Assembly (NCBI RefSeq): GCF_050920415.1 | Contig: NZ_CP169309.1 | From: Escherichia coli | GTDB lineage: Bacteria > Pseudomonadota > Gammaproteobacteria > Enterobacterales > Enterobacteriaceae | DNA: 64,000 bases | Reading direction: 5' to 3' (one strand) | Shown here: in pieces, positions 27,261 through 52,320 of the stretch | Numbering within the stretch: the stretch's first letter is position 1 | Layout of the letters: each line of letters begins with the position of its first letter | Notes under the pieces: generated by a model | Database searches by the model: none | What the model was told of the DNA's origin: nothing | Seen by the model: only the letters and a program-made list of their open reading frames with translations | Made by a program: the position numbers and the translations under genes

Positions 27261-29086
27261 TGAAATTGCAAAAGCAATTACTGGAAGCTGTGGAGCACAA
27301 ACAGCTACGCCCGCTGGATGTGCAATTTGCCCTGACCGTGGCGGGAGATGAACATCCTGCCGTCACCCTCGCGGCAGCCCTGTTAAGCCACGACGCCGGG
27401 GAAGGGCATGTCTGTTTACCGCTCTCACGACTGGAAAATAACGAGGAGTCACATCCGCTGTTAGCAACCTTCGTCAGCGAAATCGGTGAGTTACAAAATT
27501 GGGAAGAATGCTTGCTGGCTTCACAAGCGGTCAGCCGGGGAGATGAACCAACGCCGATGATCCTCTGTGGTGATCGTCTTTATTTGAATCGCATGTGGTG
27601 TAACGAGCGCACAGTGGCACGCTTTTTCAACGAAGTGAATCATGCCATTGAGGTTGATGAAGCTCTACTGGCGCAAACCCTGGACAAACTTTTTCCAGTA
27701 AGCGATGAAATTAACTGGCAAAAAGTGGCGGCGGCAGTGGCGCTGACGCGGCGGATCTCGGTGATTTCCGGCGGCCCTGGCACCGGTAAAACGACCACCG
27801 TAGCGAAGTTGTTGGCAGCGTTAATTCAAATGGCAGACGGCGAACGCTGCCGTATCCGCCTGGCTGCGCCAACGGGGAAAGCTGCCGCGCGCTTAACCGA
27901 ATCGCTTGGCAAAGCTTTGCGCCAGTTACCGCTGACCGATGAACAAAAGAAACGCATACCGGAAGACGCCAGCACCTTGCACCGTCTCCTGGGCGCGCAG
28001 CCAGGTAGCCAGCGTTTACGCCATCATGCCGGTAACCCGCTGCATCTTGATGTGCTGGTGGTGGATGAAGCGTCAATGATCGATCTCCCCATGATGTCGC
28101 GCCTGATCGATGCGTTGCCCGATCATGCCAGAGTGATCTTCCTCGGTGATCGCGATCAACTGGCCTCGGTTGAGGCTGGAGCTGTGCTGGGCGATATCTG
28201 CGCTTATGCCAACGCAGGCTTTACCGCCGAGCGTGCCGGGCAATTAAGTCGTCTGACGGGAAGTCATGTTCCGTCAGGAACTGGCACAGAAGCGGCATCT
28301 TTGCGCAACAGTCTCTGCCTGCTGCAAAAAAGCTATCGTTTCGGCAGCGATTCTGGCATTGGTCAGTTAGCTGCGGCGATCAACCGTGGTGATAAAACGG
28401 CAGTGAAAACCGTTTTTCAGCAGGATTTTACTGATATCGAAAAACGGCTTTTACAGAGCGGCGAAGACTATATTGCGATGCTTGAGGAGGCTCTTGCGGG
28501 TTACGGGCGTTATCTGGATCTGCTGCAAGCGCGTGCCGAGCCGGATTTAATCATTCAGGCGTTCAATGAGTACCAGCTTTTGTGCGCCCTGCGGGAAGGG
28601 CCGTTTGGCGTGGCTGGACTGAATGAGCGAATTGAGCAGTTTATGCAACAGAAGCGCAAAATTCATCGTCATCCGCACTCTCGTTGGTACGAAGGCCGAC
28701 CAGTGATGATTGCCCGTAATGACAGCGCGCTTGGGTTGTTTAATGGCGATATCGGTATTGCGCTGGATCGCGGGCAGGGGACGCGCGTCTGGTTTGCGAT
28801 GCCGGATGGCAATATTAAGTCTGTGCAACCGAGCCGCCTGCCAGAACACGAAACCACGTGGGCGATGACGGTACATAAATCGCAGGGATCGGAGTTTGAC
28901 CATGCGGCGTTGATTTTACCGAACCAACGCACGCCAGTTGTAACGCGAGAGCTGGTTTACACTGCGGTGACCCGCGCGCGTCGCCGTCTGTCGTTGTATG
29001 CCGATGAGCGCATATTAAGTGCGGCAATCGCCACTCGTACTGAGCGGCGCAGTGGTCTGGCGGCGTTGTTTAGTTCGCGGGAATAA
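27260..29086 (+). CDS. recD: Exodeoxyribonuclease V alpha subunit
   Basis: 608 aa; Walker [11 protein letters not shown]; start overlaps recB stop. Confidence 0.96.
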
Positions 29087-29089
29087 ACG

Positions 29090-29290
<201 letters not shown>

Positions 29291-29323
29291 ATTGCGCATG
29301 TCGCATCTGGCGATTTCCACCAC

Positions 29324-30655
29324 TTACCCCAAATCCGCCATCAACACTTTGGATTTACGCTGGTAGTTGTACAACTGCTTTTTGCTCTCGGGCAGTAAAT
29401 CAATATCCACCGGGGTAAATCCACGTTCCTGGAACCAGTGAATACTGCGCGTGGTCAGTACAAACAATTTGCTTAATCCGCTTTGCTTCGCCTGAGCGGC
29501 AATGCGCTCCAGCAAAACCTCGCCCCTTGATGAGCTGCGGTAATCCGGGTGAACGGCCACACAGGCCATTTCCCCAATCTTCTCTTCCGGGAACGGATAG
29601 AGTGCTGCGCAGGCAATAGTCGTGTTATCGCGCTGAATAATGGTGAATTTGTCGATTTCCATCTCCAGTTGCTCGCGAGAACGGCGTACCAGAATACCTT
29701 GCTGCTCCAGTGGGCGAATCAACTCCAGAATGCCGCCAATATCGTTGATTGTTGCGCGACGAATTTGCTCGGCGCTTTCCATCACAATCTGCGTACCGAT
29801 ACCGTCACGTGAGAACAACTCTTGCAACAGCGCGCCATCTTCCTGGTAACTAATTAAATGACAGCGACGTACGCCGCTGCGGCAGGCTTTCACCGCACCA
29901 CGCAAAAAGCGCACCGTACCGGAGTTGTAATCGCCTTTCTCTTCCTGAGCTTCTACCCGCGCTTGTGCTTCGTTAGGGAAAAGCTCGGAGACAATATCGC
30001 CGTCGTCATTAGTGACGCCCTGTGAAGAGCAAAAACCAATCATCTTTTCAGCTTTCAGTTTGATGGCCAGTTGAGTGGCGATCTCTTCCGAGGTCAGATT
30101 AAAGCTCTCGCCAGTGACTGAAACCGCGACCGGCCCCAGCAGCACTATCGCACCGCTGTCCAGTTGACGATGAATCGCATCTTCGTCAATCCGCCGGATA
30201 CGCCCGCTATGGCAGTAATCCACACCGTCATCCACGCCCAGCGGCTGGGCAATAATAAAATTGCCACTGACGACGTTGATATGCGCGCCCTGCAGCGGCG
30301 TGTTATTGAGACTCATCGACAGGCGAGCAGTAATGTCCAGTTGCAATGTTCCCGCAGCCTGCTTCACCAGTTCTAGTGTTTTGGCGTCGGTCACGCGTAT
30401 ATTTTTGTGATATAGCGGTTCGTGGTGATGCGCTGCCAGATTCGCATCGATCTGCGGGCGCGCTCCATAGACCACGACCAGACGGATGCCGAGGCTGTGC
30501 AGCAACCCGATATCATTAACGATACTGGAGAAATTCTCATGCTCAATGGCTTCACCGCCGAGCATGATGACAAACGTTTTTCCCCGGTGGGTATTGATAT
30601 AAGGAACCGAATGGCGGAATCCCTCGACCAACTCGGTTTTACGTTCCTTCACCAC
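29324..30655 (-). CDS. argA: N-acetylglutamate synthase
   Basis: 443 aa from GTG at 30655 ([12 protein letters not shown]); the track ORF extends in-frame upstream. Confidence 0.93.
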
Positions 30656-30670
30656 GGCACACCTCTTTGC

Positions 30671-30704
30671 ATGATTATTCGTAATTATTGTATTTTTATT
30701 CTGT
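30671..30704. promoter_or_regulatory. Candidate ArgR operator (ARG boxes) upstream of argA
   Basis: AT-rich dyad-like sequence TGATTATTCGTAATTATTGTATTTTTATTC just upstream of the argA start; resembles the ARG-box consensus from memory. Confidence 0.35.
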
Positions 30705-30885
30705 TTTTTCACTGGGTGCAAGTGCAAATTTTACGCATGAGCAACTTTTTTATCAGTAATGCCGTGAATATAAAAAGAATGTTTACCGTTTATTAGATGA
30801 CAGATTATGCGTCTTTCGCTAAAGTTTCCGGTCAAATTAGTCGTTTATTTGTTACACAGCTTAGATTTTTTTGCTCGGGAGATGC

Positions 30886-32139
30886 ATGTCGGGATCCAAC
30901 ACAGCAATCAGCCGTCGTCGTTTACTGCAAGGCGCGGGTGCCATGTGGCTATTGAGCGTAAGTCAGGTCAGTCTGGCTGCGGTCAGCCAGGTCGTGGCGG
31001 TGCGCGTCTGGCCTGCGTCCAGCTACACCCGTGTGACGGTAGAATCTAATCGTCAGCTGAAATATAAGCAGTTCGCGTTGAGTAACCCTGAACGCGTGGT
31101 GGTGGATATCGAAGATGTAAACCTGAACTCAGTGCTCAAGGGGATGGCGGCACAAATTCGTGCTGATGACCCGTTCATTAAGTCGGCGCGCGTCGGGCAG
31201 TTTGACCCGCAAACCGTGCGGATGGTTTTTGAGTTAAAGCAAAACGTAAAACCGCAGCTGTTTGCCCTTGCTCCGGTCGCCGGGTTTAAAGAGCGTCTGG
31301 TGATGGATCTCTATCCTGCCAATGCTCAGGACATGCAGGACCCGCTGCTGGCGCTGCTGGAGGATTACAATAAAGGCGATCTCGAAAAGCAGGTGCCGCC
31401 TGCGCAGAGTGGCCCGCAGCCAGGCAAAGCAGGGCGCGATCGTCCGATTGTCATTATGCTTGACCCTGGCCATGGCGGCGAAGACTCCGGTGCGGTGGGG
31501 AAATACAAAACGCGTGAAAAAGACGTGGTATTGCAAATTGCCCGCCGTTTGCGCTCTCTGATTGAGAAAGAGGGCAATATGAAAGTTTACATGACCCGTA
31601 ATGAAGACATCTTCATTCCGTTGCAAGTGCGCGTAGCAAAAGCACAGAAACAGCGTGCTGACTTGTTTGTCTCTATTCATGCCGATGCCTTTACCAGTCG
31701 CCAGCCGAGCGGTTCCTCTGTGTTTGCGCTCTCTACCAAAGGTGCAACCAGTACCGCGGCAAAATATCTGGCGCAAACTCAGAACGCCTCGGACTTGATT
31801 GGTGGCGTGAGTAAGAGCGGCGACCGTTATGTCGACCATACTATGTTCGATATGGTGCAGTCGCTGACCATTGCCGACAGTCTGAAGTTTGGTAAAGCTG
31901 TGTTGAATAAGCTCGGTAAAATCAACAAGCTGCATAAAAATCAGGTTGAACAAGCCGGGTTTGCCGTGCTGAAAGCGCCTGATATACCCTCTATTTTGGT
32001 CGAAACGGCGTTTATCAGTAACGTTGAGGAAGAACGTAAACTGAAAACGGCAACCTTCCAGCAGGAAGTTGCGGAATCAATCCTCGCAGGGATAAAAGCG
32101 TATTTTGCCGATGGGGCGACGCTGGCGAGAAGGGGATAA
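30886..32139 (+). CDS. amiC: N-acetylmuramoyl-L-alanine amidase AmiC (Tat-exported)
   Basis: Start at ATG 30886 ([19 protein letters not shown] twin-arginine signal); amidase_3 domain. Confidence 0.93.
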
Positions 32140-32310
32140 TGTTTTTATTTATTCAATGAATTTATATTTCGTTGAATAGATAATATTTACCTGAATATTA
32201 GACGTTGGTTTTGTGACTGATGTCGAATATTTGAATGTCGGCTTGAAAAATAAGCCGACCATCTCTTTAATTAAGCACAATTCCGTGTAATGTATATGCA
32301 TTAGTTAATC

Positions 32311-32340
32311 ATCTTGTAACTGTTAAATCAGGCAAGGCAA
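32311..32340 (+). promoter_or_regulatory. RAT (ribonucleic antiterminator) element of a BglG/SacY-type antitermination leader
   Basis: ATCTTGTAACTGTTAAATCAGGCAAGGCAA resembles the RAT consensus GGATTGTTACTG-N6-CAGGCAAAACC and overlaps the 5' arm of the following terminator. Confidence 0.65.
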
Positions 32341-32385
32341 TGTTTGAAGTAATTATTACTTCTGACGTGCCTTGCCTTTTTTTTT
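32329..32385 (+). terminator. Leader terminator partnered with the RAT
   Basis: 10 bp stem AGGCAAGGCA / TGCCTTGCCT with ~28 nt loop, followed by T9 (32377-32385), directly upstream of the antiterminator RBS GGAG. Confidence 0.7.
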
Positions 32386-32396
32386 GGAGCTATGGA

Positions 32397-33220
32397 ATGA
32401 TCATCGAAAAAGTCATGAACAATAATTGTGTACAGGCATCGATGAATGGACAGGAGGTTATCATTTCTGGGCCTGGCGTCGGTTACAAAAAAAATATGGA
32501 ATGTCGGTCCCTGAGCATCCGGCTAACCGGATTTTTTATGTCAGAAATGAACAAAAAAATAAACTCTACAAATTGATTGAGCATGTGGATATTGAGTATA
32601 TTTTTGTTGCCGAATAAATAGTGCAATATGCGGAGAACAATCTCGAAAAAAATCTCAATCCATCGCTACTATTGATTCTTGCTGATCATATTTCGAATGC
32701 AATATCCCGAGTCGCTTCAGGCATACAAATTAATAATGTTTTCCTTGATGAAATCAAAGCGTTGTACAAAGCAGAGTATGCGATAAGTCGCGATGCATTA
32801 ACTATCATTAATGAGCAATTCAGCGTTCAACTTCCTGATGATGAGATTGGTTTTATAGCATTGCATATTTTAAATAATTATGAGAATTCAGTTGATTATG
32901 AATCAGTACGGATTATTGAGTTGTCGCAAATAATCACGGGGCTTATTGAAGTTGTTTATAACAGAAAGGTGGACAGAAGTTCATTTAATTATTCCAGGTT
33001 CATGATACACCTTAAATATTTTTCAAGTCGCGTATTATGCAATGAAAAAATAAAACAGAAAGATATTGGTGATCTCTATGAACAGTTTCTTGAGAAAGAC
33101 ATTCTGTTACAGCGCGCAATTCATGAAATTGAAAGGTATTTGTACGCCACTTTTAAATATGAATTGATTTTGGAAGAAAAACTATATCTCTCTATTCGCA
33201 CCAAAGTATTAATGGACTGA
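32397..33220 (+). pseudogene. BglG/LicT-family transcription antiterminator (CAT-PRD1-PRD2), disrupted
   Basis: CAT domain MIIEKVMNNNCVQASMNGQEVIISGPGVGYKK in one frame; continuation ...RIFYVRNEQKNKLYKLIEHVDIEYIFVAE in the -1 frame after an A8 run (32486-32493); in-frame TAA at 32615-32617; PRD region continues to 33220 (FIALHIL, FMIHLKYF conserved His). Confidence 0.8.
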
Positions 33221-33251
33221 TTATATATAACATTTATATGAGATAACCCGC

Positions 33252-34832
33252 ATGAAACAAAAGAAAGCCTGGAGTTTTTTTCAGAGCCTGGGAAAGGCAT
33301 TTATGTATCCCATCGCTCTGCTAAGTGTATGTGGCATGATGTTAGGGCTAGGAAGTGGTTTAGCCAGCGATGATATGGCAAAATTAATTCCACTACTGGC
33401 TATTCCCGTAATTAAAACCATTCTTGATTTTATTGTTAGCCTTGGTTTGTTTGCCTTTGTCAATTTACCTGTATTGTTTGCGATAGCTATACCTCTGGGG
33501 TTATTAAAAGAGAAAGAGGATAAAGCCTATGGCGCTTTTTCTGGCTTAATTGGTTTCATGGCGATGCATCTGGGAACGAACTTTTATCTTAAACAACATG
33601 ACTTATTGGTCGCTGCTGATCAAATGTCGACACATGGGCAAACCATTATTCTGGGAATCCAGTCCTACAATACCAGTGTGTTGGGTGGGATTATAGCAGG
33701 ATTATTAGTCGCCAGTATGTATAAAAAGATCGTTAACTTACGTATTCCTGAATCATTAGGATTTTATAGTGGCCCACGCCTGGTGCCTATTATTACACTG
33801 ATTGTGATGAGTGGATTTGGTCTGATCATCCCTTTTATCTGGCCGCCATTTTTCAATCTTTTCATGCTCATTGGCCACTGGATTTCAACTTCCGGTCCTG
33901 TTGGCTATTTTTTCTATGCAGTCGCCGAACGCGTGACGATACCTTTTGGTTTAAATCACCTGGTGACGTCAGTTTTCCGCTTTACCCCCATCGGCGGATC
34001 GGCAGTGATCGGCGGAGAAGAGTATTATGGCACCCTGAACATGTTTATGGCGTACGTCAAAGAGAATGCGGTCATTCCGCTGGAGTTGGCGGGGAAAATG
34101 GAACAGGGCAAACTGATGATTCAGTATGGTCTGGCTGGTGCCGCGCTGGCGATGTATCGCACTGCTCATGCTCAAAACAGAAAAGCTATCAAAGCATTGC
34201 TTATTTCCGGGGTGCTTACAGTCATTATTGGCGGCGTCAGCGAACCGATTGAGTTTCTGTTCTTATTTGTCAGTCCACTGCTATTTGTCTTCCATGCTTT
34301 TATGAATGGATTCGCCAACATGGTCTTGCCATATATGGGCGTGAAGATGGGATTTACTGGCGATCTGATTCAATTTATTAGCTTTGGCGTATTGCGTGGC
34401 ACAAGAACAGGTTGGCCAATAGCGGTGTGTGTCGAAGTGGCCTATTTCTTTATTTATTACTTTGTGTTCCGTTGGACTATTCTCAAATTTAACCTGATGA
34501 CGGTAGGCCGTGAAGAGTCCAGTCCTGTCACGCTGAACGCTCATGAGGATACGGCTATAGCGGATATCCCAACGCTTGATAAATCAGAGCTGCAAGCAGC
34601 GGAGCAGATGGTTAAGGCACTTGGTGGTAAAGAGAATATTAAATCCCTGGATAATTGCGTAACTCGTTTACGTTTAACAATCGCAGATATGGGATTGATT
34701 GACGAGGCAGCAATAAAAAGAGCTGGCGGAATTGCGGTTGTTAAACTTGATCAAAATACCCTACAAGTCATTATCGGTACTAAAGTCATCGCCTTGCGTC
34801 GGGATATGGATAACTACATGGGGATATGCTGA
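33252..34832 (+). CDS. PTS sugar transporter EIICB, glucose/maltose family, no EIIA domain
   Basis: 526 aa; polytopic EIIC with SEPIEF motif; C-terminal EIIB with phospho-Cys motif NCVTRLR. Confidence 0.9.
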   Translation: MKQKKAWSFFQSLGKAFMYPIALLSVCGMMLGLGSGLASDDMAKLIPLLAIPVIKTILDFIVSLGLFAFVNLPVLFAIAIPLGLLKEKEDKAYGAFSGLIGFMAMHLGTNFYLKQHDLLVAADQMSTHGQTIILGIQSYNTSVLGGIIAGLLVASMYKKIVNLRIPESLGFYSGPRLVPIITLIVMSGFGLIIPFIWPPFFNLFMLIGHWISTSGPVGYFFYAVAERVTIPFGLNHLVTSVFRFTPIGGSAVIGGEEYYGTLNMFMAYVKENAVIPLELAGKMEQGKLMIQYGLAGAALAMYRTAHAQNRKAIKALLISGVLTVIIGGVSEPIEFLFLFVSPLLFVFHAFMNGFANMVLPYMGVKMGFTGDLIQFISFGVLRGTRTGWPIAVCVEVAYFFIYYFVFRWTILKFNLMTVGREESSPVTLNAHEDTAIADIPTLDKSELQAAEQMVKALGGKENIKSLDNCVTRLRLTIADMGLIDEAAIKRAGGIAVVKLDQNTLQVIIGTKVIALRRDMDNYMGIC

Positions 34833-36007
34833 TGGATGTTTTTAATACTCCTATTTCCCGCAAAGGAACATATTGTACCCAATGGGACTTTTGCGAGGAC
34901 AGATTTGGTGTAAAAGATGTATTACCATTCTCTATTTCAGATATGGATCTTCCGATACCGGAAGCTATCATCAGGGCATTAAGAAAACGTCTGGAACACC
35001 CGATTTTAGGGTACAGCCGTTGGCAGCATGATGACTATCTGAATGCGATAGTCAATTGGTATCATCAACAATATAAAACTGAAATCAAACCAGAATGGAT
35101 CACCTATAGCCCAAGCGTGATGTACTCCATTGCTAAAGCAATAGAGTTATTGACATCGCATGGTGATAATATTCTCGTTTTTACACCTGTCTATAATGCA
35201 TTTTTTGATATAATTAAACATAGCGAGAGAAATATTCTGACAGCCTCTTTGATTATAAAAAATGAGGGGGGCTACGCTATCAATTGGCAAGATTTTGATC
35301 TTAAGATTCAAAGCGCAAAGATGGTGTTATTATGTAATCCTCATAACCCGACAGGAACCGTCTGGTCGGAAGAAGAGCTGCATAAAATCGCTGCAAGCTG
35401 TGCAAGACATAATGTCTGGTTATGTTCAGATGAAATTCACAGTGATTTTGTTTTTAATCGTAGCTTTACATCTGCGCTTAAAATAAAAAAAGAAAAAGTA
35501 GTGGTGTTTAATTCGATATCGAAGACATTTAATGTTCCTGCGCTAACAGGATCGTATATGATTTCAACTGACGATAATTTTAATCATAAGTTCAGGACGA
35601 TATCAAGATATCGCGATTTTGTAAACTCCCCATCCGTACTGAATATAATTGCAACTATTATTGCCTATAACGAATGTGAGGGATGGTTAAAGTCATTAAA
35701 GGCACATATTGCCTCTAACATTCAATTCACCCAGCAGTATCTGAACGAAAATACTCCAGAATTGATTGTAAGGCCTGCTGATGGTTGCTATTTTTCGTGG
35801 ATAGATTGCTCTGCTATTGGTTATCCCTTTGATGAATTCTACAGTCGATTAATTCATGAAGGCAAAGTGGGCATTATGGCGGGGAATGTCTATGGAACGG
35901 AGGGGGAGGGCTACCTTCGTCTGAACCTGGCCTGCGGTCGAGAAAAATTATATATGGGGCTTACGCGTCTTGCGAGTGTAATTAAAAATATTAATCAAGG
36001 AAAATAA
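34832..36007 (+). CDS. MalY/PatB-like PLP-dependent C-S lyase (aminotransferase class I/II fold)
   Basis: N-terminus MDVFNTPISRKGTYCTQWD aligns with E. coli MalY MFDFSKVVDRHGTWCTQWD; SxSKTFN PLP-lysine region; alternative ATG at 34826 overlaps the PTS stop. Confidence 0.88.
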   Translation: MDVFNTPISRKGTYCTQWDFCEDRFGVKDVLPFSISDMDLPIPEAIIRALRKRLEHPILGYSRWQHDDYLNAIVNWYHQQYKTEIKPEWITYSPSVMYSIAKAIELLTSHGDNILVFTPVYNAFFDIIKHSERNILTASLIIKNEGGYAINWQDFDLKIQSAKMVLLCNPHNPTGTVWSEEELHKIAASCARHNVWLCSDEIHSDFVFNRSFTSALKIKKEKVVVFNSISKTFNVPALTGSYMISTDDNFNHKFRTISRYRDFVNSPSVLNIIATIIAYNECEGWLKSLKAHIASNIQFTQQYLNENTPELIVRPADGCYFSWIDCSAIGYPFDEFYSRLIHEGKVGIMAGNVYGTEGEGYLRLNLACGREKLYMGLTRLASVIKNINQGK

Positions 36008-36009
36008 AA

Positions 36010-36606
36010 ATGAACAGCACGGATCTTATCCATCTCATTAAACATTTTATGCGTAACGAACATAAAGCAGTTGAAGAAGTTATTGATTCCCCCCTTTCGG
36101 AGGTCGCAAATTTAATTAAAGTATTACAGTCTTGTCAGGGGAAAGTTGTTTTTATTGGTGTCGGTAAGTCCGGTATTATTGCCCGAAAACTCGCCGCAAC
36201 ATTTGCCAGCACTGGAACTCCCTCGTTTTTTGTTCACGGTACTGAAGCCGTACACGGCGATCTTGGGATGGTGGCGAAAGATGATGTTGTTATTCTTATT
36301 TCAAACAGTGGTGAGACGACAGAAATCCTGGCAACACTACCTAGTCTGAAAAAAATGGGTAATTATTTGATCTCCTTTACCCGCAGTCATCGCTCATCGC
36401 TTGCGATAAGTTGTGATTTATCCGTTGAAATTCCCGTAAAAAGTGAGGCGGATAATTTAGGTTTAGCGCCGTCATGCTCATCAACAGTCGTTCTGGTTGT
36501 TGGTGATGCGGTGGCGCTTGCGCTCTCCGAATTGAAAAAGTTTACTTGTGCTGATTTCGGCTTATATCATCCAGGAGGTGCGCTCGGTATTAAAGCAAAC
36601 TCATAA
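36010..36606 (+). CDS. SIS-domain-only sugar-phosphate isomerase, KdsD/GutQ-like without CBS domains
   Basis: 198 aa; GVGKSGIIARKLAATFASTGTPSFFVHGTEAVHGDLGMV and SNSGET closely resemble the KdsD SIS domain; ORF ends where CBS domains would begin. Confidence 0.88.
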   Translation: MNSTDLIHLIKHFMRNEHKAVEEVIDSPLSEVANLIKVLQSCQGKVVFIGVGKSGIIARKLAATFASTGTPSFFVHGTEAVHGDLGMVAKDDVVILISNSGETTEILATLPSLKKMGNYLISFTRSHRSSLAISCDLSVEIPVKSEADNLGLAPSCSSTVVLVVGDAVALALSELKKFTCADFGLYHPGGALGIKANS

Positions 36607-36676
36607 TTTTAGAATATAAAACAGTAACCGGTCACGCCATCTTTTGGGGTGGCGTTCATTGATGTGAGTGTCAGCT

Positions 36677-37624
36677 ATGAAAAACGTTCTGGTCACCGTT
36701 CCCAGCTTTTCAGCGCGTTGTGTTTCTGCCAGCAAGCTGCTAAGAGAAAATCATTTTAACCTTATTATCAAGAATAATGTGGAGCATCTGGTTAAATCAG
36801 AATCCACAGTATTACGAGAATCTATTTGCGCAGTCATTGCCGGAAAAGATTGTTATCAAGCGGATACGTTATCGCGACTACCAGGAGTGAAAATAATATC
36901 GAGATTCGGGACAGGGATTGATAATATTGATCTTCATACGGCTCGACAATCAGGTATTGTGGTCAATAATGCTGTTGGGATTAATTCAAATGCAGTCGCG
37001 GAATTTATCATTGGTCTTATTTTTGCGAGCATGAGAAATATCCCCGGTAGCTATCATGCGATGCAAAATGGTTATTGGGGCGAGTCGCATGGCTGCGAGT
37101 TACAAGGTAAACGTATTGGCCTGCTTGGCTACGGCAATATTGGCAAAACACTGGCGAAAAGGTTATCTGGTTTTGATGTTGAGCTTTTAGCTTTTGACAA
37201 ACAACCCGATTTCCAGGCCGCAGGCAAAGATGGAGTTCAGTTCGTATCAATTGAAGATATCTTTATGCAGTCTCATGTCATCATCGTTCTTTTGCCATTT
37301 TCTCCGGAGCTGGAGAACTTCATTAGTCATAAATATTTGTCGATGATGCGCAATGGTGCTCTTATCATCAACGCCGCAAGGGGAAAGTTGCTGGATGAGA
37401 GTGCTTTACTTCAGGTAATTGAAGAACGAAATGTTTTTGCAGCACTGGATGTGTTTAGCTCTGAACCGCTAGCGCAATTTAGCCCATTGCTACATGCCAG
37501 GAATATCATTACAACGCCGCATATTGCGGCCGCCACCGTTGAGTCATACCAGCAAACCGGGATATACGTTGCCAGGTCGATAATAGATTTCTTTGCAGGA
37601 AGGGAGATAAAAAACGTGCTGTGA
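36677..37624 (+). CDS. NAD-dependent D-isomer-specific 2-hydroxyacid dehydrogenase
   Basis: About 315 aa; NAD-binding GLLGYGNIGKT and catalytic-region TPHIAAAT; start could alternatively be GTG at 36668. Confidence 0.85.
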   Translation: MKNVLVTVPSFSARCVSASKLLRENHFNLIIKNNVEHLVKSESTVLRESICAVIAGKDCYQADTLSRLPGVKIISRFGTGIDNIDLHTARQSGIVVNNAVGINSNAVAEFIIGLIFASMRNIPGSYHAMQNGYWGESHGCELQGKRIGLLGYGNIGKTLAKRLSGFDVELLAFDKQPDFQAAGKDGVQFVSIEDIFMQSHVIIVLLPFSPELENFISHKYLSMMRNGALIINAARGKLLDESALLQVIEERNVFAALDVFSSEPLAQFSPLLHARNIITTPHIAAATVESYQQTGIYVARSIIDFFAGREIKNVL

Positions 37625-37650
37625 GTTCAGCTAAGGAAGATTTCAGGTAC

Positions 37651-37683
37651 AAAAAAACCGCAATCTGTGAAACATATTGCGGT
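37651..37683 (-). terminator. Rho-independent terminator of the tRNA-fMet operon
   Basis: On the minus strand, stem ACCGCAAT / ATTGCGGT followed by T7, immediately 3' of the last tRNA copy. Confidence 0.75.
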
Positions 37684-37702
37684 TTATCAGCATCATAAGT
37701 GT

Positions 37703-37779
<77 letters not shown>

Positions 37780-37812
37780 TCACCGTACTGCTTTACTTCA
37801 TCAAATTTTGAT

Positions 37813-37889
<77 letters not shown>

Positions 37890-37922
37890 TCACCGTACTG
37901 CTTTACTTCATCAAATTTTAAT

Positions 37923-37999
<77 letters not shown>

Positions 38000-38032
38000 T
38001 CACCGTACTGCTTTACTTCATCAAATTTTAAT

Positions 38033-38109
<77 letters not shown>

Positions 38110-38317
38110 TCCGTGGATGCGCACTATACTCCGCTCGCGTTTTCATGCAACCTTTTTTTTACCCAGATCACGGATTTGGTATGATTTTGAGCAAAAACAA
38201 ATCACTAAAGCCTGTTTTTTGTGCAAAATTTGCGTCAGGGAGAGGCTGCTCATTTCATTAAACGCGGCGGTTTGTTATCTTCATTGCGCCTTATTTTTTA
38301 AACTGAAGAAGAGAACA

Positions 38318-39415
38318 ATGAAAGGACGTTGGGTAAAGTACCTTCTTATGGGCACGGTTGTGGCAATGCTTGCCGCCTGCTCTTCCAAACCAACCGATCG
38401 CGGACAGCAATATAAAGACGGGAAATTTACCCAGCCTTTCTCTCTGGTAAACCAGCCAGATGCCGTTGGCGCGCCAATTAACGCCGGTGATTTTGCCGAG
38501 CAAATTAACCATATCCGTACTTCGTCACCGCGTCTGTATGGCAACCAGAGTAATGTTTATAATGCGGTGCAGGAGTGGCTACGCGCAGGCGGTGATACCC
38601 GCAATATGCGTCAGTTCGGCATTGACGCCTGGCAGATGGAAGGTGCCGACAACTATGGCAACGTGCAGTTTACGGGCTATTACACGCCTGTCATTCAGGC
38701 GCGCCATACCCGTCAGGGCGAGTTCCAGTATCCTATTTACCGTATGCCGCCAAAACGTGGTCGTCTGCCGTCTCGTGCTGAGATCTACGCGGGAGCATTG
38801 AGCGATAAATACATCCTCGCTTACAGCAACTCTCTGATGGATAACTTCATTATGGATGTGCAGGGTAGCGGGTATATCGATTTTGGTGATGGCAGTCCGC
38901 TTAACTTCTTCAGCTATGCCGGAAAGAATGGTCATGCCTATCGCAGTATTGGTAAGGTGCTGATTGACCGTGGCGAAGTGAAAAAAGAAGATATGTCGAT
39001 GCAGGCGATTCGTCACTGGGGTGAAACACACAGTGAAGCCGAGGTTCGCGAGCTGCTGGAACAGAACCCGTCTTTCGTCTTCTTTAAACCGCAATCTTTT
39101 GCTCCGGTGAAAGGGGCAAGTGCGGTGCCGCTGGTTGGTCGCGCTTCAGTTGCGTCCGATCGTTCCATTATCCCGCCTGGTACAACTTTACTGGCAGAAG
39201 TGCCGCTGCTGGATAATAACGGCAAATTTAACGGTCAGTACGAACTGCGGCTGATGGTGGCGCTGGATGTCGGTGGTGCAATCAAAGGCCAACACTTCGA
39301 TATTTATCAAGGTATCGGGCCGGAAGCCGGACACCGCGCAGGTTGGTACAACCACTATGGACGTGTTTGGGTGCTGAAAACCGCCCCGGGCGCAGGTAAC
39401 GTCTTTAGCGGCTGA
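38318..39415 (+). CDS. mltA: Membrane-bound lytic murein transglycosylase A (lipoprotein)
   Basis: Start at ATG 38318 (MKGRWVKYLLMGTVVAMLAACSS lipobox); the 38036 track ORF is an extension through the tRNA genes. Confidence 0.93.
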   Translation: MKGRWVKYLLMGTVVAMLAACSSKPTDRGQQYKDGKFTQPFSLVNQPDAVGAPINAGDFAEQINHIRTSSPRLYGNQSNVYNAVQEWLRAGGDTRNMRQFGIDAWQMEGADNYGNVQFTGYYTPVIQARHTRQGEFQYPIYRMPPKRGRLPSRAEIYAGALSDKYILAYSNSLMDNFIMDVQGSGYIDFGDGSPLNFFSYAGKNGHAYRSIGKVLIDRGEVKKEDMSMQAIRHWGETHSEAEVRELLEQNPSFVFFKPQSFAPVKGASAVPLVGRASVASDRSIIPPGTTLLAEVPLLDNNGKFNGQYELRLMVALDVGGAIKGQHFDIYQGIGPEAGHRAGWYNHYGRVWVLKTAPGAGNVFSG

Positions 39416-39491
39416 TGTGTTATTCTGTATACCGTTTTGACGGATACGACAGGGTGAGGGATAACCTCGCCCTTTTTAATTCTGAGGTGCT

Positions 39492-40298
39492 ATGTCTGTG
39501 GTAATTAGTGATGCATGGCGTCAGCGTTTTGGTGGCACTGCGCGTCTGTATGGTGAAAAAGCGTTGCAACTGTTTGCTGATGCGCATATTTGTGTGGTCG
39601 GTATCGGTGGCGTCGGTTCCTGGGCGGCGGAAGCGCTGGCGCGTACGGGGATTGGCGCAATCACACTTATCGATATGGATGATGTGTGCGTCACTAATAC
39701 CAATCGGCAAATTCACGCGCTGCGAGATAACGTCGGGCTGGCCAAAGCGGAAGTAATGGCGGAGCGTATTCGCCAGATTAACCCGGAGTGCCGTGTAACG
39801 GTGGTAGATGACTTCGTGACGCCGGATAACGTAGCGCAATATATGAGTGCCGGTTATTCGTACGTGATTGATGCCATTGATAGTGTGCGACCCAAAGCGG
39901 CGCTGATTGCTTATTGTCGGCGCAATAAAATCCCTCTGGTCACGACTGGTGGTGCTGGTGGGCAGATTGATCCGACGCAGATTCAGGTTACCGATCTGGC
40001 GAAAACGATTCAGGACCCTCTGGCGGCGAAGTTGCGCGAGCGCCTGAAAAGCGATTTTGGCGTAGTGAAAAACAGCAAAGGTAAGCTCGGCGTGGATTGC
40101 GTGTTCTCTACCGAAGCGCTGGTGTACCCGCAGTCAGACGGTACGGTGTGCGCGATGAAAGCCACGGCAGAAGGGCCGAAGCGGATGGATTGTGCATCTG
40201 GATTTGGCGCGGCGACGATGGTGACCGCCACCTTTGGTTTTGTTGCGGTTTCTCATGCGTTGAGGAAGATGATGGTGAAAGCGGCGCGTCAGGGGTAA
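39492..40298 (+). CDS. tcdA: tRNA threonylcarbamoyladenosine dehydratase (ThiF/MoeB-like E1)
   Basis: 268 aa; Rossmann motif VVGIGGVGSWAAEALARTG. Confidence 0.9.
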   Translation: MSVVISDAWRQRFGGTARLYGEKALQLFADAHICVVGIGGVGSWAAEALARTGIGAITLIDMDDVCVTNTNRQIHALRDNVGLAKAEVMAERIRQINPECRVTVVDDFVTPDNVAQYMSAGYSYVIDAIDSVRPKAALIAYCRRNKIPLVTTGGAGGQIDPTQIQVTDLAKTIQDPLAAKLRERLKSDFGVVKNSKGKLGVDCVFSTEALVYPQSDGTVCAMKATAEGPKRMDCASGFGAATMVTATFGFVAVSHALRKMMVKAARQG

Positions 40299-40348
40299 AC
40301 AATCAGGTCGGATGCGACGTGAACGTCTTATCCGACCTGGTTTTGCGC

Positions 40349-40792
40349 TTAACCCTGCTTCGCCGCCGCGATAATCGCCTCGCTTAACGCATTCAACCCC
40401 TGACTGCGAGAGGCGCTAAGTTGCCCACGCAATCCCAGCTCATCAAACAATGCCAGCGGCGACTGTGCCTGCAATTCGGCGGCGGTTTTCCCCTCAACGG
40501 CAGTCAACAACACCGCCAGCAGGCCGCGCACAATGCGTCCTTCGCTGTCGCCAAAGAAATGCATCGTGCCGTTTTCAGCCACGGTATATCCCAGCCAGAC
40601 GCGGTTTTCGCATCCGGCGATCTCTTTAGCCTGCGCTTTTAACTCGTCTGGCAAAGCTGGAAGCTGTTTCCCCAACATAATTAGCTGACGATATTTGTCT
40701 TCCCATTGAGTCAACGGCGCGAAAGTTTCGTGTAACGTCTTTACGGTAACGGTTGTGCCGAACGGATGTCCGGCGAATTGCGGGTTCGTCAT
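40349..40792 (-). CDS. csdE: Sulfur acceptor protein (SufE-like)
   Basis: 147 aa; recognised as CsdE; adjacent to csdA. Confidence 0.9.
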
Positions 40793-41997
40793 TAATCCAC
40801 CAATAATTCCAGCGCACGGTCAACGGCATTCACCAGCGCATCCACATCACTCTTTGTATTATATGGCGCAAAAGAGGCGCGCAGTGTGCCGGTTACGCCT
40901 AATTCTGCCAGTAGCGGCTGAGCGCAATGCTGCCCGGCCCGCAGGGCAATGCCGTACTCCGCCAGCAGCGTCACCATATCGCTGTGATGAACGCCAGCAA
41001 AATCAAAGGCTAGCAGGCTGGAATCCTGGCTGCGGAATGAACGAAAGCCTGGACGTTTTGCCAGCGCCTCTTCTGCAATCGTCGCCAGGCTGCGACTCCA
41101 GCTTTCTGCCTGGTTGATATCGTAATCTGCCAGCCATTCCAGCGCCGCGCTTAACCCAATTACGCCAGCGACATTTGGCGTTCCTGCTTCCAGTTTCCAC
41201 GGCGCAGATTGAGTGATGAAGCCGTCAAAACTCACTTCGTGAACCATTTTGCCGCCGCCCAGCCAGGGCGACATTGCTTCCAGCAGTTCTGGTTTGCCGT
41301 AAAGTACGCCTATCCCTGTCGGGCCATACAGTTTGTGACCAGAGAAAGCGTAAAAATCAATATCCAGTTGCTGAACATCCGCGGGGAAATGCACCGCCCC
41401 CTGAGCACCATCAACCATCACCACCATCCCGGCTGAATGAGCAAAGGTAATCGCTCGTGCCAGATCCGGGCAACCGCCAGTGACGTTAGACATCTGGCCC
41501 AACGCCAGAATCCGACTATGGGGAGTAATCAGTTCAGGCAACAAATCGATATCTGGCAACCGCTGCGCATTAAGCGGCAATTTCACCACTTTGGCTCCGG
41601 TTTGTTGGGCGACCATCAGCCAGGGGACGAGGTTGGCGTGATGCTCTGCCACACTGACAATAATTTCATCGCCCGGTTGCAGACGCGGACGGGCATAGCA
41701 TTGCGCCACCATGTTGATGGATTCAGTGGTGCCACGCGTCCAGACGATAGTTTTGTCATCTGGTGCATTCAGTAATTGCGCCACTTTTTCCCGTGCAGCT
41801 TCGTAACGCGCGGTCAGGCGTTGGGCCTCGGCAAACTGACTACGATGGACGTTTCCGGCGCTCAGGCTGTAAAACTGTCGGGTTGCTTCAACCACGACTT
41901 CAGGTTTAAGCGCGGTCGCGGCACTGTCGAGATAGACGCCCGCATCCTGTAGCGCGGGAAACTGGGCGCGAAATTGCGCGGGATTAAAAACGTTCAT
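40792..41997 (-). CDS. csdA: Cysteine desulfurase / sulfinate desulfinase
   Basis: 401 aa from ATG at 41997 ([13 protein letters not shown]); PLP class V aminotransferase; track ORF has an upstream extension. Confidence 0.92.
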
Positions 41998-51099: not shown

Positions 51100-51645
51100 A
51101 GCATCCTCTTAGGTTCAGAAGCTTAAGCACGTAATCGGTTATGTTTTCAAAAGTGCAAAACCAGCGAGTTCGGGCTTCATATCAGTGAATATTTGCCTGT
51201 CTGAAATGAACTCATGGATTCATTTTCAAATAAAAAACGCTCTGTAATATGACGGCGGTCACACTTATTAGCTGGAAGGTGACTTTATGTGACTACCATC
51301 ACTTTAATAATCGAAATTTCATGCCCGTTTCAGAAAATAAATCATAAAAAACACAAACCCGATGACCGTATTAATTGTTTGTGCCGAAAACGGGCATTTC
51401 TGGCGAGGGGGAATGGAAAAATGACCGTTTTGATAAATATTTTTAAGAGCGGTCATTTTTAATAGGGTTATAAAAAGACAACTTGCAGTTATTTACTGTG
51501 ATTAGTTGAACCAGGTCACAAAATCTAAGCTTGTGAATTTCTTTCTGGTTAATCAGGAAGAAGATGGTGGGTAATTAAACGGCTAATTCAATAGTGTGAA
51601 AGGAACAACATTATTGCCCTGTTTTGAATCAGAGAGAGGTAGCTA
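51100..51645. promoter_or_regulatory. Divergent fucPIKUR / fucAO control region
   Basis: 546 bp AT-rich gap between divergent fucP and fucA; individual FucR/CRP sites not resolved by eye. Confidence 0.55.
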
Positions 51646-52293: not shown

Positions 52294-52320
52294 TTTCGTA
52301 AAGCAAAAAGGAGCAGGATG

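What the first reader, a model, noticed from the sequence alone, without database searches (positions are those of the whole stretch)
32140..37650. AT-rich accessory operon between amiC and the tRNA-fMet cluster: antiterminator, PTS EIICB, MalY-like lyase, SIS isomerase, 2-hydroxyacid dehydrogenase
Five co-directional, tightly packed genes (gaps of 31, -1, 2 and about 70 bp) sit in a visibly AT-rich block flanked by GC-normal core genes, directly next to the 3' side of the tRNA-fMet operon terminator. In K-12, as I recall, amiC lies next to metZWV with no such genes between. The combination (glucose-family EIICB without EIIA, a PLP C-S lyase, a SIS-only KdsD-like isomerase and a D-2-hydroxyacid dehydrogenase under RAT/antiterminator control) does not match any canonical sugar pathway I can name. 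I believe it corresponds to the tRNA-Met-associated island of uropathogenic E. coli CFT073 (locus tags around c3405-c3410, from memory, unverified), where the SIS-only protein was reported to be an arabinose-5-phosphate isomerase. The transported substrate and the roles of the lyase and dehydrogenase are, as far as I know, unresolved. No integrase or direct repeat of the tRNA 3' end is visible.
Basis: partly seen in the sequence, partly recalled or inferred. Interest (0 to 1): 0.8.

Follow-up and report, generated by a model that had tools for sequence, protein, structure and literature searches.

The report
Known ExPEC "malX" sugar operon, regulator broken
This AT-rich five-gene block is the well-known "malX / PAI-metV" sugar-uptake operon of extraintestinal pathogenic E. 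coli (pafR-pafP, c3405-c3410). Here it is present without its type VI secretion neighbour and with its switch gene inactivated by two mutations, so it is a real but mostly already described feature whose sugar is still unknown.

Summary
Five co-directional genes (GC 0.41 against 0.505 for the window) replace the 73-bp K-12 amiC-metV spacer, and the block is accessory (1,688 of 5,426 complete E. coli genomes).

The locus is already known. It is the amiC-proximal module of PAI-CFT073-metV (c3405-c3410). The classic Johnson-Stell "malX/PAI" primers land on it, the regulator and permease are published as pafR/pafP, and the SIS protein is 190/198 identical to crystal structure 5UQI.

- The antiterminator is a pseudogene here (frameshift at codon 31, TAA at codon 74). 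Both lesions are private to one genome. The only RAT-terminator lies upstream of it, so the operon is predicted to be locked off.
- About 1,090 carriers have a roughly 31-kb T6SS module between the operon and metV, bounded by a tRNA-3'-end repeat. The window has the short form, as do 595 genomes.
- The same unit sits at the same site in Atlantibacter hermannii and elsewhere in Citrobacter.
- The four-gene core is syntenic with C. difficile CD630_30270-30310. The EIICB is 68% identical to that copy but only 42% to E. coli MalX.

No substrate is assigned in any paper I could read, the latest from February 2026. Novelty: already known. Interest is low to moderate.

The parts
32140..32396 (+). Operon leader. 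It contains a hairpin just after amiC (32237-32259), a RAT-like antiterminator target (32314-32334) and an overlapping intrinsic terminator (stem 32330-32377, U-tract to 32386).
   Evidence: The RAT pattern TTGTAACTGTTAAATCAGGCA is unique in 64 kb, with 0 expected by chance. The hairpin folds at -32.4 kcal/mol, z = -4.07. The helix is kept across 8 enterobacterial sequences: 92.7% of cells paired against 35-55% when slid, and 5 pairs with changes on both sides. The same motif sits upstream of the regulator in every enterobacterial copy.
32397..33220 (+). pafR pseudogene, a BglG/LicT-family PRD antiterminator. It has a frameshift at codon 31 (1-nt deletion at 32488/9) and a TAA stop at codon 74 (32615-32617).
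   Evidence: Alignment to UTI89 and FCI1. PGAP note 'frameshifted; internal stop'. Intact orthologues have CAT_RBD plus PRD domains and invariant His98, His157 and His205. Each lesion is found in only 1 of 5,426 genomes.
33252..34832 (+). pafP ('malX' PAI marker gene): glucose-family PTS EIICB with no EIIA domain.
   Evidence: Pfam PTS_EIIC 14-353 and PTS_EIIB 452-484. Best NCBIfam match is MalX TIGR02004 at 536 bits, below the 632 cutoff. It is 42% identical to K-12 MalX and 68% identical to the C. difficile EIICB. The NCVTRLRL EIIB Cys motif is present.
34832..36007 (+). PatB/MalY-family PLP-dependent beta C-S lyase.
   Evidence: TIGR04350 at 368.7 bits, above the 340 cutoff. Best PDB match is E. 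coli MalY 1D2F. It is 36% identical to MalY, with the PLP-lysine motif SISKTFN aligned to SGSKSFN.
36010..36606 (+). Single-SIS-domain phosphosugar isomerase, the c3406-type arabinose-5-phosphate isomerase lacking CBS domains.
   Evidence: 190/198 identical to PDB 5UQI/5VHU. It matches only positions 36-201 of the 328-position KdsD model. The GVGKSG, SNSGET and HPGGALG motifs are visible in the sequence.
36677..37624 (+). PGDH-like D-2-hydroxyacid dehydrogenase of the short type, without an ACT domain.
   Evidence: Best NCBIfam match is PGDH at 211 bits, below the 454 cutoff. Best PDB match is 1WWK. The sequence shows GYGNIGK (NAD binding), the Arg of AARG, the Glu of SSEP and the His of TPHI. 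The gene is present in E. coli, A. hermannii and Citrobacter but absent from the Enterobacter and clostridial copies.
37625..37702 (.). 78-bp spacer. It holds a hairpin (37656-37664 paired with 37676-37684) that is followed by T7 on the - strand, which makes it the terminator of the tRNA operon.
   Evidence: Sequence. It is conserved in all short-form alleles. In UTI89 and FCI1 it is followed by a 14-nt tRNA 3'-end remnant and then T6SS DNA.
37703..38109 (-). Four tandem tRNA-fMet (CAT) genes. The equivalent metZWV cluster has three copies in K-12.
   Evidence: ARAGORN, Rfam and PGAP. Three copies are found in K-12, UTI89, MINF_1A, 98228, CFSAN027346 and A. hermannii.

Best explanation
The block is the paf ('malX') operon, the amiC-proximal module of the metV genomic island known from ExPEC (CFT073 c3405-c3410).

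How it works in its intact form (this wiring is inferred from the anatomy and from the bgl/sac paradigm):
- A promoter in the amiC-pafR spacer is followed by a RAT sequence overlapping an intrinsic terminator.
- PafR, a BglG-type antiterminator with a CAT domain, two PRDs and three conserved His residues, binds the RAT when its partner permease PafP is busy with substrate. This allows read-through into pafR, pafP, the lyase, the SIS isomerase and the dehydrogenase.
- PafP is a glucose-family EIICB that most likely takes phosphate from the general EIIA-Glc (Crr). The clostridial orthologous operons encode a Glc-type EIIA next to the core.
- The imported, phosphorylated compound is then processed by a PatB/MalY-type PLP beta-lyase, a single-SIS-domain isomerase and, in Escherichia, Citrobacter and Atlantibacter, a PGDH-like D-2-hydroxyacid dehydrogenase. 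The isomerase was crystallised as 5UQI and, from memory of Mosberg 2011, reported as an arabinose-5-phosphate isomerase.
- The substrate is unknown. My best guess, at low confidence, is a glucoside-like sugar linked to the beta-carbon of an amino acid (Cys or Ser type conjugate). Its sugar-phosphate part would be funnelled to the pentose-phosphate pathway.

In this particular genome pafR is dead, through a frameshift at codon 31 and a stop at codon 74. The only RAT-terminator precedes pafR, so transcription should end in the leader. The four intact downstream genes are therefore predicted to be silent (cryptic). That prediction is an inference.

Origin: the module is old and of low-GC (clostridial-type) ancestry. 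It moves between lineages by homologous recombination rather than by a tRNA-targeting integrase.
For: Identity of the locus:
- The block is present in 1,688 of 5,426 genomes.
- Gene order is the same as in UTI89, with 93-98% protein identity.
- PMC2831201 places c3405-c3410 ('PTS system, maltose/glucose specific') inside PAI-CFT073-metV.
- The Johnson-Stell RPAi primers map to the pafR 3' end and the pafP 5' end in UTI89 and give a 922-bp product.
- pafR/pafP are published as metV-island genes needed in mouse UTI (PMC8882828, citing Baum 2014).
- The SIS protein is 190/198 identical to 5UQI.

Regulation:
- The RAT is unique in the window.
- The terminator folds at -32.4 kcal/mol with z = -4.07 and shows covariation.
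- RAT and terminator are conserved upstream of the regulator in all enterobacterial copies.
- Intact PafR has CAT and PRD domains and invariant His98, His157 and His205.

Pseudogene:
- The lesions are seen in alignments to UTI89 and FCI1 and in the PGAP flag.
- Both are private to one genome.
- pafR is the only pseudogene among 42 CDSs in 50 kb.

Selection and origin:
- dN/dS is 0.03-0.13 for the four enzyme and transport genes.
- The C. difficile operon has the same order plus an EIIA_1 gene and is co-regulated in vivo (PMC4026244).
- Identity to the C. difficile proteins is 68% for PafP, 49% for the lyase and 52% for the SIS protein.
- The same core occurs in Terrisporobacter and two Clostridium lineages.
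- The unit is at the same site in A. hermannii and at a different site in Citrobacter.
- The operon is 99.5% identical to that of FCI1, while amiC is only 95.2% identical.
Against: - No expression data exist for this strain, so the OFF state is inferred only.
- Cross-talk from another BglG-family antiterminator, or an internal promoter, cannot be excluded. A 9/12 sigma-70-like site lies at 32573-32602, though the number of such sites is no more than chance gives.
- The four downstream genes show no decay. That fits either very recent inactivation or continued use.
- The PRD2 match is weak in Pfam (E = 0.037).
- The substrate proposal rests on gene context alone: transketolase next to the core in one genus, natural lyase-SIS fusions, and peptidase-linked PatB homologues elsewhere.
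- The primary papers on PafR (Baum 2014), c3406 (Mosberg 2011) and PAI-metV (Lloyd 2009) were not held. Their content is taken from secondary citations or from memory.
Confidence: 0.8

Rival explanations
1. The operon is still expressed in this strain despite the broken pafR. This could happen through another BglG-family antiterminator acting on the RAT, through terminator read-through, or through a promoter inside the pseudogene. The transport and enzyme genes would then remain functional.
For: All four downstream ORFs are intact, and dN/dS against the closest alleles is still 0.04-0.09. The RAT closely resembles the generic BglG/SacY-type consensus as I recall it. A promoter-like site lies at 32573-32602.
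Against: The terminator is strong (-32.4 kcal/mol plus U9). Promoter-like matches are no more frequent than in shuffled sequence (16 found against 17.3 expected). RAT and antiterminator pairs are usually specific (established knowledge of the bgl and sac systems). From my memory of the Baum 2014 abstract, which I could not read, even intact strains showed no in vitro expression.
Confidence: 0.2
2. The two pafR lesions are assembly or sequencing errors, and the regulator is intact in the living strain.
For: Both lesions occur in only one deposited genome. The indel creates an A8 run, a context prone to long-read errors.
Against: The second lesion is a base substitution (AAA to TAA), which is not a typical homopolymer error. 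pafR is the only pseudogene among 42 CDSs in the surrounding 50 kb. The window and the public record agree exactly.
Confidence: 0.07
3. The block is a recently acquired, UPEC-specific pathogenicity island that integrated at the metV tRNA through a site-specific integrase, as classical tRNA-linked islands do.
For: It abuts the 3' end of a tRNA cluster, is AT-rich, and is enriched in B2/ExPEC strains.
Against: - No integrase and no tRNA-end repeat flank the operon.
- The att-type repeat (25-nt flank plus 14-nt tRNA end) brackets only the T6SS module in UTI89 and FCI1, so that module inserted after the operon was in place.
- The operon sits at the same site in Atlantibacter hermannii.
- Alleles differ by dS up to 0.5 under purifying selection, which points to an old locus.
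- 595 genomes carry the short form, including STEC-sized and animal or environmental isolates.
Confidence: 0.08
4. The system is mainly a sensor, not a catabolic pathway. PafP and PafR would sense a host-derived sugar and PafR would antiterminate other, unlinked virulence or biofilm genes. The lyase would act as a MalY-like regulatory protein.
For: As summarised in PMC8882828, Baum 2014 found that PafR expression changes virulence, biofilm and motility genes and that pafR/pafP mutants are attenuated. E. coli MalY is a known regulator of MalT.
Against: The RAT motif occurs only once in this 64-kb window. The rest of the genome was not searched. The tight synteny of EIICB, lyase and SIS across phyla, the natural lyase-SIS fusions and the strong purifying selection on all the enzymes argue for a metabolic unit. 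Clostridia lack MalT.
Confidence: 0.15

Closest known systems
paf / 'malX' operon of PAI-CFT073-metV (c3405-c3410; pafR, pafP, c3406) in ExPEC such as CFT073 and UTI89
   Same: Same five genes in the same order at the same amiC-metV position. Protein identity to UTI89 is 93-98%. The leader RAT and terminator are the same. The SIS protein is 190/198 identical to 5UQI.
   Different: - pafR is a pseudogene here.
- No T6SS module lies between the operon and the tRNAs (short form).
- There are four tRNA-fMet copies rather than three.
- The DNA is about 6% diverged.
- The classic PCR primers mismatch (2 forward, 5 reverse).
- The B2 allele of pafR lacks 12 bp (270 aa against 274 aa).
Clostridioides difficile operon CD630_30270-30310 (antiterminator, malX-EIIBC, malY, phosphosugar isomerase, EIIA)
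   Same: The order is the same: CAT/PRD antiterminator, EIICB, PatB-type lyase, single-SIS isomerase. Identity is 68% for the EIICB, 49% for the lyase, 52% for the SIS protein and 36% for the regulator. It uses RAT-terminator control and is co-regulated as a unit (PMC4026244).
   Different: - The C. difficile operon encodes its own Glc-type EIIA and has no dehydrogenase.
- It has four tandem RAT-terminator units between the regulator and the EIICB, rather than one upstream of the regulator.
- Its GC content is 0.30.
E. coli K-12 malI-malX-malY
   Same: An adjacent pair of glucose-family EIICB without EIIA and a PLP beta C-S lyase. Identity is 42% and 36% over the full length.
   Different: It is controlled by the LacI-type repressor MalI, not by an antiterminator. 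It has no SIS isomerase or dehydrogenase. It is a core K-12 locus with normal GC. PafP scores below the NCBIfam MalX cutoff.
E. coli bglG-bglF-bglB (and B. subtilis LicT/SacY/GlcT systems)
   Same: The regulatory logic is the same: a CAT-PRD1-PRD2 antiterminator, a RAT overlapping a leader terminator upstream of the regulator gene, and a partner PTS EII. The three His residues equivalent to BglG H101, H160 and H208 are conserved.
   Different: Identity to BglG is only about 25%. Scores are below all NCBIfam equivalog cutoffs. The partner permease is of the Glc/MalX type, not the beta-glucoside type. There is no phospho-glycosidase in the operon.
KdsD / GutQ / KpsF arabinose-5-phosphate isomerases
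   Same: The SIS domain is homologous to the N-terminal half of KdsD (196 bits). The phosphate-binding motifs are conserved.
   Different: It lacks the tandem CBS domains (198 aa against about 328 aa). It scores below the family cutoffs. It sits in a PTS operon, not in an LPS or capsule context.

Membership tests
PAI-CFT073-metV (metV genomic island of ExPEC) | Located between amiC and the metZWV tRNA-fMet cluster | tested here: met
   Window gene order is amiC, operon, tRNAs, mltA. UTI89 has the same flanks. K-12 shows the empty site.
PAI-CFT073-metV (metV genomic island of ExPEC) | Contains the c3405-c3410 PTS operon (the 'malX' marker) | tested here: met
   Five orthologous genes are present. 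PMC2831201 describes the locus. The RPAi primers map to it in UTI89.
PAI-CFT073-metV (metV genomic island of ExPEC) | Contains the roughly 31-kb T6SS cluster (island published as 32 kb; about 36 kb in UTI89) | tested here: not met
   In the window the dehydrogenase stop is 78 bp from the tRNA. UTI89 and FCI1 have the T6SS module there. 595 genomes share the short form.
BglG/SacY/LicT-family PRD antiterminator system | N-terminal CAT RNA-binding domain joined to PRD1 and PRD2 in one polypeptide | tested here: not met
   Intact alleles have CAT 1-55, PRD 73-156 and a weak PRD 176-247. In the window the frame is broken at codon 31 and stopped at codon 74.
BglG/SacY/LicT-family PRD antiterminator system | Conserved regulatory histidines in the PRDs | tested here: met
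   His98, His157 and His205 are invariant in 7 orthologues and BglG. The codons are still present in the window's PRD remnant.
BglG/SacY/LicT-family PRD antiterminator system | RAT sequence overlapping the 5' arm of an intrinsic terminator in the leader | tested here: met
BglG/SacY/LicT-family PRD antiterminator system | Demonstrated antitermination activity | not testable with these tools
   Reported for PafR by Baum 2014, from my memory of the abstract. The paper is not held.
PTS glucose-family EIICB, MalX subfamily | EIIC and EIIB domains with the phosphorylatable Cys, and no EIIA | tested here: met
   Pfam. The NCVTRLRL motif aligns to MalX NCITRLRL.
PTS glucose-family EIICB, MalX subfamily | Scores above the curated MalX family cutoff (orthology to MalX) | tested here: not met
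   TIGR02004 scores 536.4 against a cutoff of 632.2, and PRK10110 scores 525.9 against 665. Identity to MalX is 42%.
PatB/MalY family C-S lyase | Score above the TIGR04350 cutoff and a conserved PLP-binding lysine | tested here: met
   368.7 against 340. The SISKTFN lysine aligns with the MalY SGSKSFN lysine.
PatB/MalY family C-S lyase | Beta C-S lyase activity | not testable with these tools
   Activity has been shown for E. coli MalY and for C. difficile MalY (cysteine desulfhydrase; PMC6143707), not for this protein.
KdsD/GutQ/KpsF arabinose-5-phosphate isomerase | SIS domain followed by tandem CBS domains | tested here: not met
   The protein is 198 aa and matches only positions 36-201 of the 328-position KdsD model. 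It scores below the cutoffs.
KdsD/GutQ/KpsF arabinose-5-phosphate isomerase | A5P/Ru5P isomerase activity | not testable with these tools
   The near-identical protein was crystallised (5UQI/5VHU). The activity report (Mosberg 2011) is recalled from memory, and the paper is not held.
D-isomer-specific 2-hydroxyacid dehydrogenase (PGDH-like) | NAD-binding GxGxxG motif and the Arg/Glu/His catalytic triad | tested here: met
   The sequence shows GYGNIGK, AARG, SSEP and TPHI. Best hits are PGDH and 1WWK. It scores below every equivalog cutoff, so the substrate is undefined.
Integrase-mobilised tRNA-linked genomic island | Integrase gene and direct repeats of the tRNA 3' end at both borders | tested here: not met
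   No repeat occurs in 31900-37702 and no integrase is annotated. The tRNA-end repeat exists only around the T6SS module of long-form strains.

The most novel reading that the evidence does not exclude
The conserved core (antiterminator, MalX-like EIICB, PatB/MalY lyase, single-SIS isomerase) is shared by ExPEC, Citrobacter, Atlantibacter, C. difficile and other clostridia. It could encode a still undescribed PTS-coupled route for a sugar-amino-acid conjugate, for example an S- or O-glycosyl Cys/Ser-type compound of host or dietary origin. In that route a PLP beta-lyase would act on a phosphorylated glycoconjugate and the SIS enzyme would feed the sugar phosphate into the pentose-phosphate pathway. 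This would explain both the ExPEC fitness effect of the 'malX' marker locus and the strong regulation of C. difficile malY. Its loss in this food isolate would then reflect life outside that niche.
Probability: 0.2. Interest if true: 0.7.

Novelty: already known. Interest (0 to 1): 0.3.

Why it matters
The locus is one of the most widely scored ExPEC markers ('malX/PAI'), and published work links it to fitness in mouse urinary-tract infection. Even so, its substrate and the roles of three of its enzymes are unknown.

This analysis adds four things:
1. The operon is an old, recombining module, separate from the T6SS island that later inserted beside it.
2. It is orthologous to a well-expressed C. 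difficile operon, so experiments in either organism inform the other.
3. Non-B2 alleles such as this one are likely to be missed by the classic PCR.
4. This strain carries a natural regulator knock-out.

None of this overturns current knowledge.

Tried and rejected
- Rfam (E-value mode) on 31800-38400 found only the four tRNAs and no known riboswitch or leader family.
- The sigma-70 and terminator consensus scans gave no more sites than shuffled sequence.
- The primary papers were not held: Mosberg 2011, Lloyd 2009 and Baum 2014.
- Searches for the locus tags c3406-c3410 and for pafR/pafP returned mostly noise.
- Neighbourhoods of SIS-only homologues in Lactiplantibacillus and Mammaliicoccus were unrelated sugar loci and gave no clue to the substrate.
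- I considered that the short form must be ancestral. I rejected that as unprovable for this strain. FCI1, the nearest allele, has the T6SS module, and recombination across the 39-nt direct repeat would regenerate the short form exactly.
- I considered transcriptional slippage on the A8 run as a rescue of the frameshift. I rejected it because the downstream TAA at codon 74 would still stop translation.
- I did not run structure prediction or fold search. A near-identical crystal structure exists for the SIS protein, close solved homologues exist for the lyase and the dehydrogenase, and neither method would reveal the substrate.

Full report
**1. The observation**

The region 32140-37650 holds co-directional + strand reading frames. 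The record identical to the window, NZ_CP169399.1 (E. coli MFDS1022581, a food isolate from Korea), is annotated by PGAP as follows:
- 32397-33220: PRD domain protein, flagged as a pseudogene
- 33252-34832: PTS EIIC
- 34832-36007: MalY/PatB family protein
- 36010-36606: KpsF/GutQ-family isomerase
- 36677-37624: phosphoglycerate dehydrogenase

GC is 0.32-0.46 inside the block and 0.52-0.57 outside. The operon as a whole is 0.407 against 0.505 for the window. Four tRNA-Met(CAT) genes lie on the - strand at 37703-38109.

In K-12 the amiC stop codon and the metV 3' end are 73 bp apart. In the window that whole spacer, with both of its terminators, is replaced by 5,563 bp. The divergence starts at the amiC stop codon itself (TGA in K-12, TAA here) and ends at the last base of the tRNA.

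**2.

I aligned the window with UTI89 and with FCI1, its closest relative for the operon. Two lesions appear:
- One base is deleted at 32488/9 (GGTTACAACAAAAAA becomes GGTTACAAAAAAAA, codon N31).
- AAA becomes TAA at 32615-32617 (codon K74).

PGAP flags the gene 'frameshifted; internal stop'. The CAT RNA-binding domain is encoded upstream in another frame.

Short probes across each lesion match at 100% in only one of 5,426 complete genomes, the record identical to the window. 1,272 and 162 other genomes carry the intact versions. pafR is the only pseudogene among 42 CDSs in the surrounding 50 kb. A generally error-prone assembly is therefore unlikely, although resequencing would settle the point.

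**3. Identity of the locus**

The block occurs in 1,688 of 5,426 complete E. coli genomes: 94 at 99% identity or more, 50 at 95-99% and 1,544 at 90-95%. The carriers include UTI89 and ST131.

Several lines tie it to the known island:
- PMC2831201 describes c3405-c3410, 'PTS system, maltose/glucose specific', as a conserved set inside PAI-CFT073-metV. It is present in all the UPEC examined, in E2348/69 and in SMS-3-5.
- The classic ExPEC 'PAI/malX' primers RPAi-f and RPAi-r (Johnson and Stell 2000, as listed in PMC12058657) map in UTI89 to the 3' end of the regulator gene and the 5' part of the EIICB gene, 922 bp apart. This locus is therefore the 'malX pathogenicity-island marker'.
- PMC8882828 cites Baum et al. 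2014 for pafR and pafP as metV-island genes whose loss attenuates CFT073 in mouse UTI.
- The SIS protein is 190/198 identical to PDB 5UQI/5VHU. From memory, this is the CFT073 c3406 arabinose-5-phosphate isomerase of Mosberg et al. 2011. That paper, Lloyd 2009 and Baum 2014 were not held.

**4. Domain and family checks**

*Regulator.* Intact PafR (UTI89) has a CAT_RBD at 1-55, a PRD at 73-156 and a weak second PRD at 176-247. His98, His157 and His205 are invariant across seven orthologues and BglG. The best NCBIfam matches are LicT and GlcT, all below their cutoffs.

*Permease.* PafP has EIIC and EIIB domains and no EIIA. Its best match is MalX, below the cutoff. It is 42% identical to K-12 MalX.

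*Lyase.* It passes the PatB cutoff (368.7 against 340). Its nearest solved relative is E. coli MalY, at 36% identity with the PLP-lysine motif conserved.

*Dehydrogenase.* It is a short PGDH-like D-2-hydroxyacid dehydrogenase. The NAD motif and the Arg/Glu/His triad are visible in the sequence.

**5. Regulation**

The leader holds a RAT-type motif, TTGTAACTGTTAAATCAGGCA (32314-32334). It is unique in the 64 kb, with 0 expected by chance. It overlaps the 5' arm of a long hairpin at 32330-32377 (-32.4 kcal/mol, z = -4.07), which is followed by U9.

The same arrangement precedes the regulator gene in all E. coli alleles and in A. hermannii, Citrobacter and Enterobacter. On an 8-sequence alignment the helix keeps 92.7% of cells paired, against 35-55% when the partners are slid. 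Five pairs change on both sides.

Only 31 bp separate pafR from pafP, so this is the only RAT-terminator. With no functional PafR, transcription should stop in the leader. Predicted silence of the operon in this strain is an inference, not a measurement.

**6. Structure and history of the island**

*The T6SS module.* In UTI89 a module of about 30.7 kb lies between the dehydrogenase gene and three tRNA genes. The operon's 3' spacer in UTI89 and FCI1 is followed by TGGTTGCGGGGGCC, the last 14 nt of tRNA-fMet. In UTI89 the 25-nt flank GCGGTTTGTCAGCATTCTAATAAAT recurs next to the true tRNA.

The T6SS module is therefore a classical insertion at the tRNA 3' end, and it arrived after the operon already abutted metV. 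A junction probe shows 595 genomes with the contiguous short form. In the others the match stops exactly 14 nt into the tRNA, which gives roughly 1,090 long-form genomes.

No tRNA-end repeat flanks the operon itself.

I cannot tell whether the window's short form is primary. It could also be a secondary loss of the T6SS module across the direct repeat, because FCI1 has the window-type allele (99.48% identical) together with the T6SS module.

*Age and mobility of the operon.*
- Alleles differ by dS up to 0.5 in a mosaic pattern, with dN/dS of 0.03-0.13.
- The five-gene unit sits at the same amiC|tRNA|mltA site in Atlantibacter hermannii, where the dehydrogenase is split into two ORFs in that assembly.
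- It sits at a different site in Citrobacter freundii.
- The four-gene core without the dehydrogenase is in an Enterobacter.

*The window strain.* It belongs to a rare, diverged lineage. Its recD-to-csdE flanks are only 92-97% identical to K-12, UTI89 and the others. Only 14 genomes match a fuc core segment at 99% or more. Yet 94 genomes share its operon allele at 99% or more, so the operon is exchanged between lineages.

**7. Origin and function**

C. difficile carries the genes in the same order: antiterminator, EIICB, lyase, SIS and a Glc-type EIIA. These are CD630_30270-30310. They are co-regulated in vivo (PMC4026244), and the MalY of that operon was shown to be a cysteine desulfhydrase (PMC6143707).

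PafP is 68% identical to the C. difficile EIICB, against 42% to E. coli's own MalX. The lyase is 49% identical and the SIS protein 52%. The same core with a nearby EIIA-Glc recurs in Terrisporobacter, where a split transketolase and a phosphohexomutase follow it, and in two Clostridium lineages. This supports three inferences:
- The module has a low-GC origin.
- E. coli PafP probably uses the general EIIA-Glc.
- The core is one metabolic unit.

Further hints come from two observations. Some E. coli and Shigella records encode natural lyase-SIS fusions. More distant PatB-type lyases sit with other PTS families plus M20, M24 or M42 peptidases.

From these I propose, at low confidence, a sugar-amino-acid conjugate as the substrate. 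A February 2026 comparative paper still lists the E. coli genes only by homology (PMC12928451).

**8. Practical note**

In the window allele the forward malX primer has 2 mismatches. The reverse primer has 5, including its 3'-penultimate base. FCI1, MINF_1A and CFSAN027346 have 4 reverse-primer mismatches. PCR surveys probably under-detect such alleles.

**9. Verdict**

The feature is real. The locus is already known and partly characterised, so it does not deserve an interest of 0.8.

The new points are modest:
- a strain-private double knock-out of the regulator;
- the composite nature of the island and the order in which its parts inserted;
- conservation at the same site in Atlantibacter;
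- orthology with the C. difficile operon.

The substrate remains the open question.

Noticed in passing
window 37703-38109: The window has four tandem tRNA-fMet genes. K-12, UTI89, MINF_1A, 98228, CFSAN027346 and A. hermannii have three. The junction probe found 5 tRNA-type places in this genome against a median of 4.
   Followed up: partly
window 28200-41100 (recD, argA, amiC, mltA, tcdA, csdE): The core flanks are only 92-97% identical to K-12, UTI89 and the other E. coli, which are 97-99% identical to each other. amiC has dS of 0.33-0.38 with an identical protein. A fuc segment (50000-53000) matches only 14 of 5,426 genomes at 99% or more. The strain looks like a rare, diverged lineage, possibly a cryptic clade; I did not assign it.
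   Followed up: partly
L002 11476-11570; L004 about 4028-4060 (UTI89); L017 6987-7080 (FCI1): The roughly 31-kb T6SS module of the metV island is bounded by a direct repeat. The repeat is a 25-nt flank plus the last 14 nt of tRNA-fMet (TGGTTGCGGGGGCC). This shows that the module inserted between the paf operon and metV.
   Followed up: yes
proteins P0122-P0129 (E. coli 2534-86, Shigella flexneri CCH060 and others): Natural fusions of the PatB-type lyase and the SIS isomerase occur in some E. coli and Shigella records (550-592 aa, PF00155 plus PF01380). One is on 11 contigs, including a 5.17-Mb chromosome.
   Followed up: no
L013 4999-5400 (C. difficile): Four tandem RAT-terminator units, about 104 bp apart, lie between the antiterminator gene and the EIICB gene of the orthologous operon.
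   Followed up: no
L008 8673-9620 (Atlantibacter hermannii): The dehydrogenase gene of the orthologous operon is split into two ORFs of 132 and 119 aa. This is either a pseudogene or an assembly problem.
   Followed up: no
window 33097-33118 and 33997-34018: The Johnson-Stell malX/PAI primer sites have 2 mismatches (forward) and 5 (reverse, including the 3'-penultimate base) in this allele. Several non-B2 alleles have 4 reverse mismatches. PCR-based prevalence of 'malX' is probably biased toward B2-type alleles.
   Followed up: yes
L015 (Granulicatella), L016 (Clostridium intestinale): More distant PatB-type lyases (43-48% identity) are clustered with fructose- or lactose-family PTS components, PRD/EIIA regulators and M20, M24 or M42 peptidases. 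This is a recurring PTS, peptidase and C-S lyase association with no assigned substrate.
   Followed up: no
window 32637-32648; L002 about 6495: The window and the non-B2 alleles have 12 bp (AACAATCTCGAA, four codons) that the UTI89 pafR allele lacks, giving 274 aa against 270 aa.
   Followed up: partly
L018 8488-11815 (Terrisporobacter mayombei): Split transketolase (N and C subunits) and a phosphohexomutase directly follow the antiterminator, EIICB, lyase, SIS and EIIA cluster. This hints that the pathway feeds the pentose-phosphate pathway.
   Followed up: no
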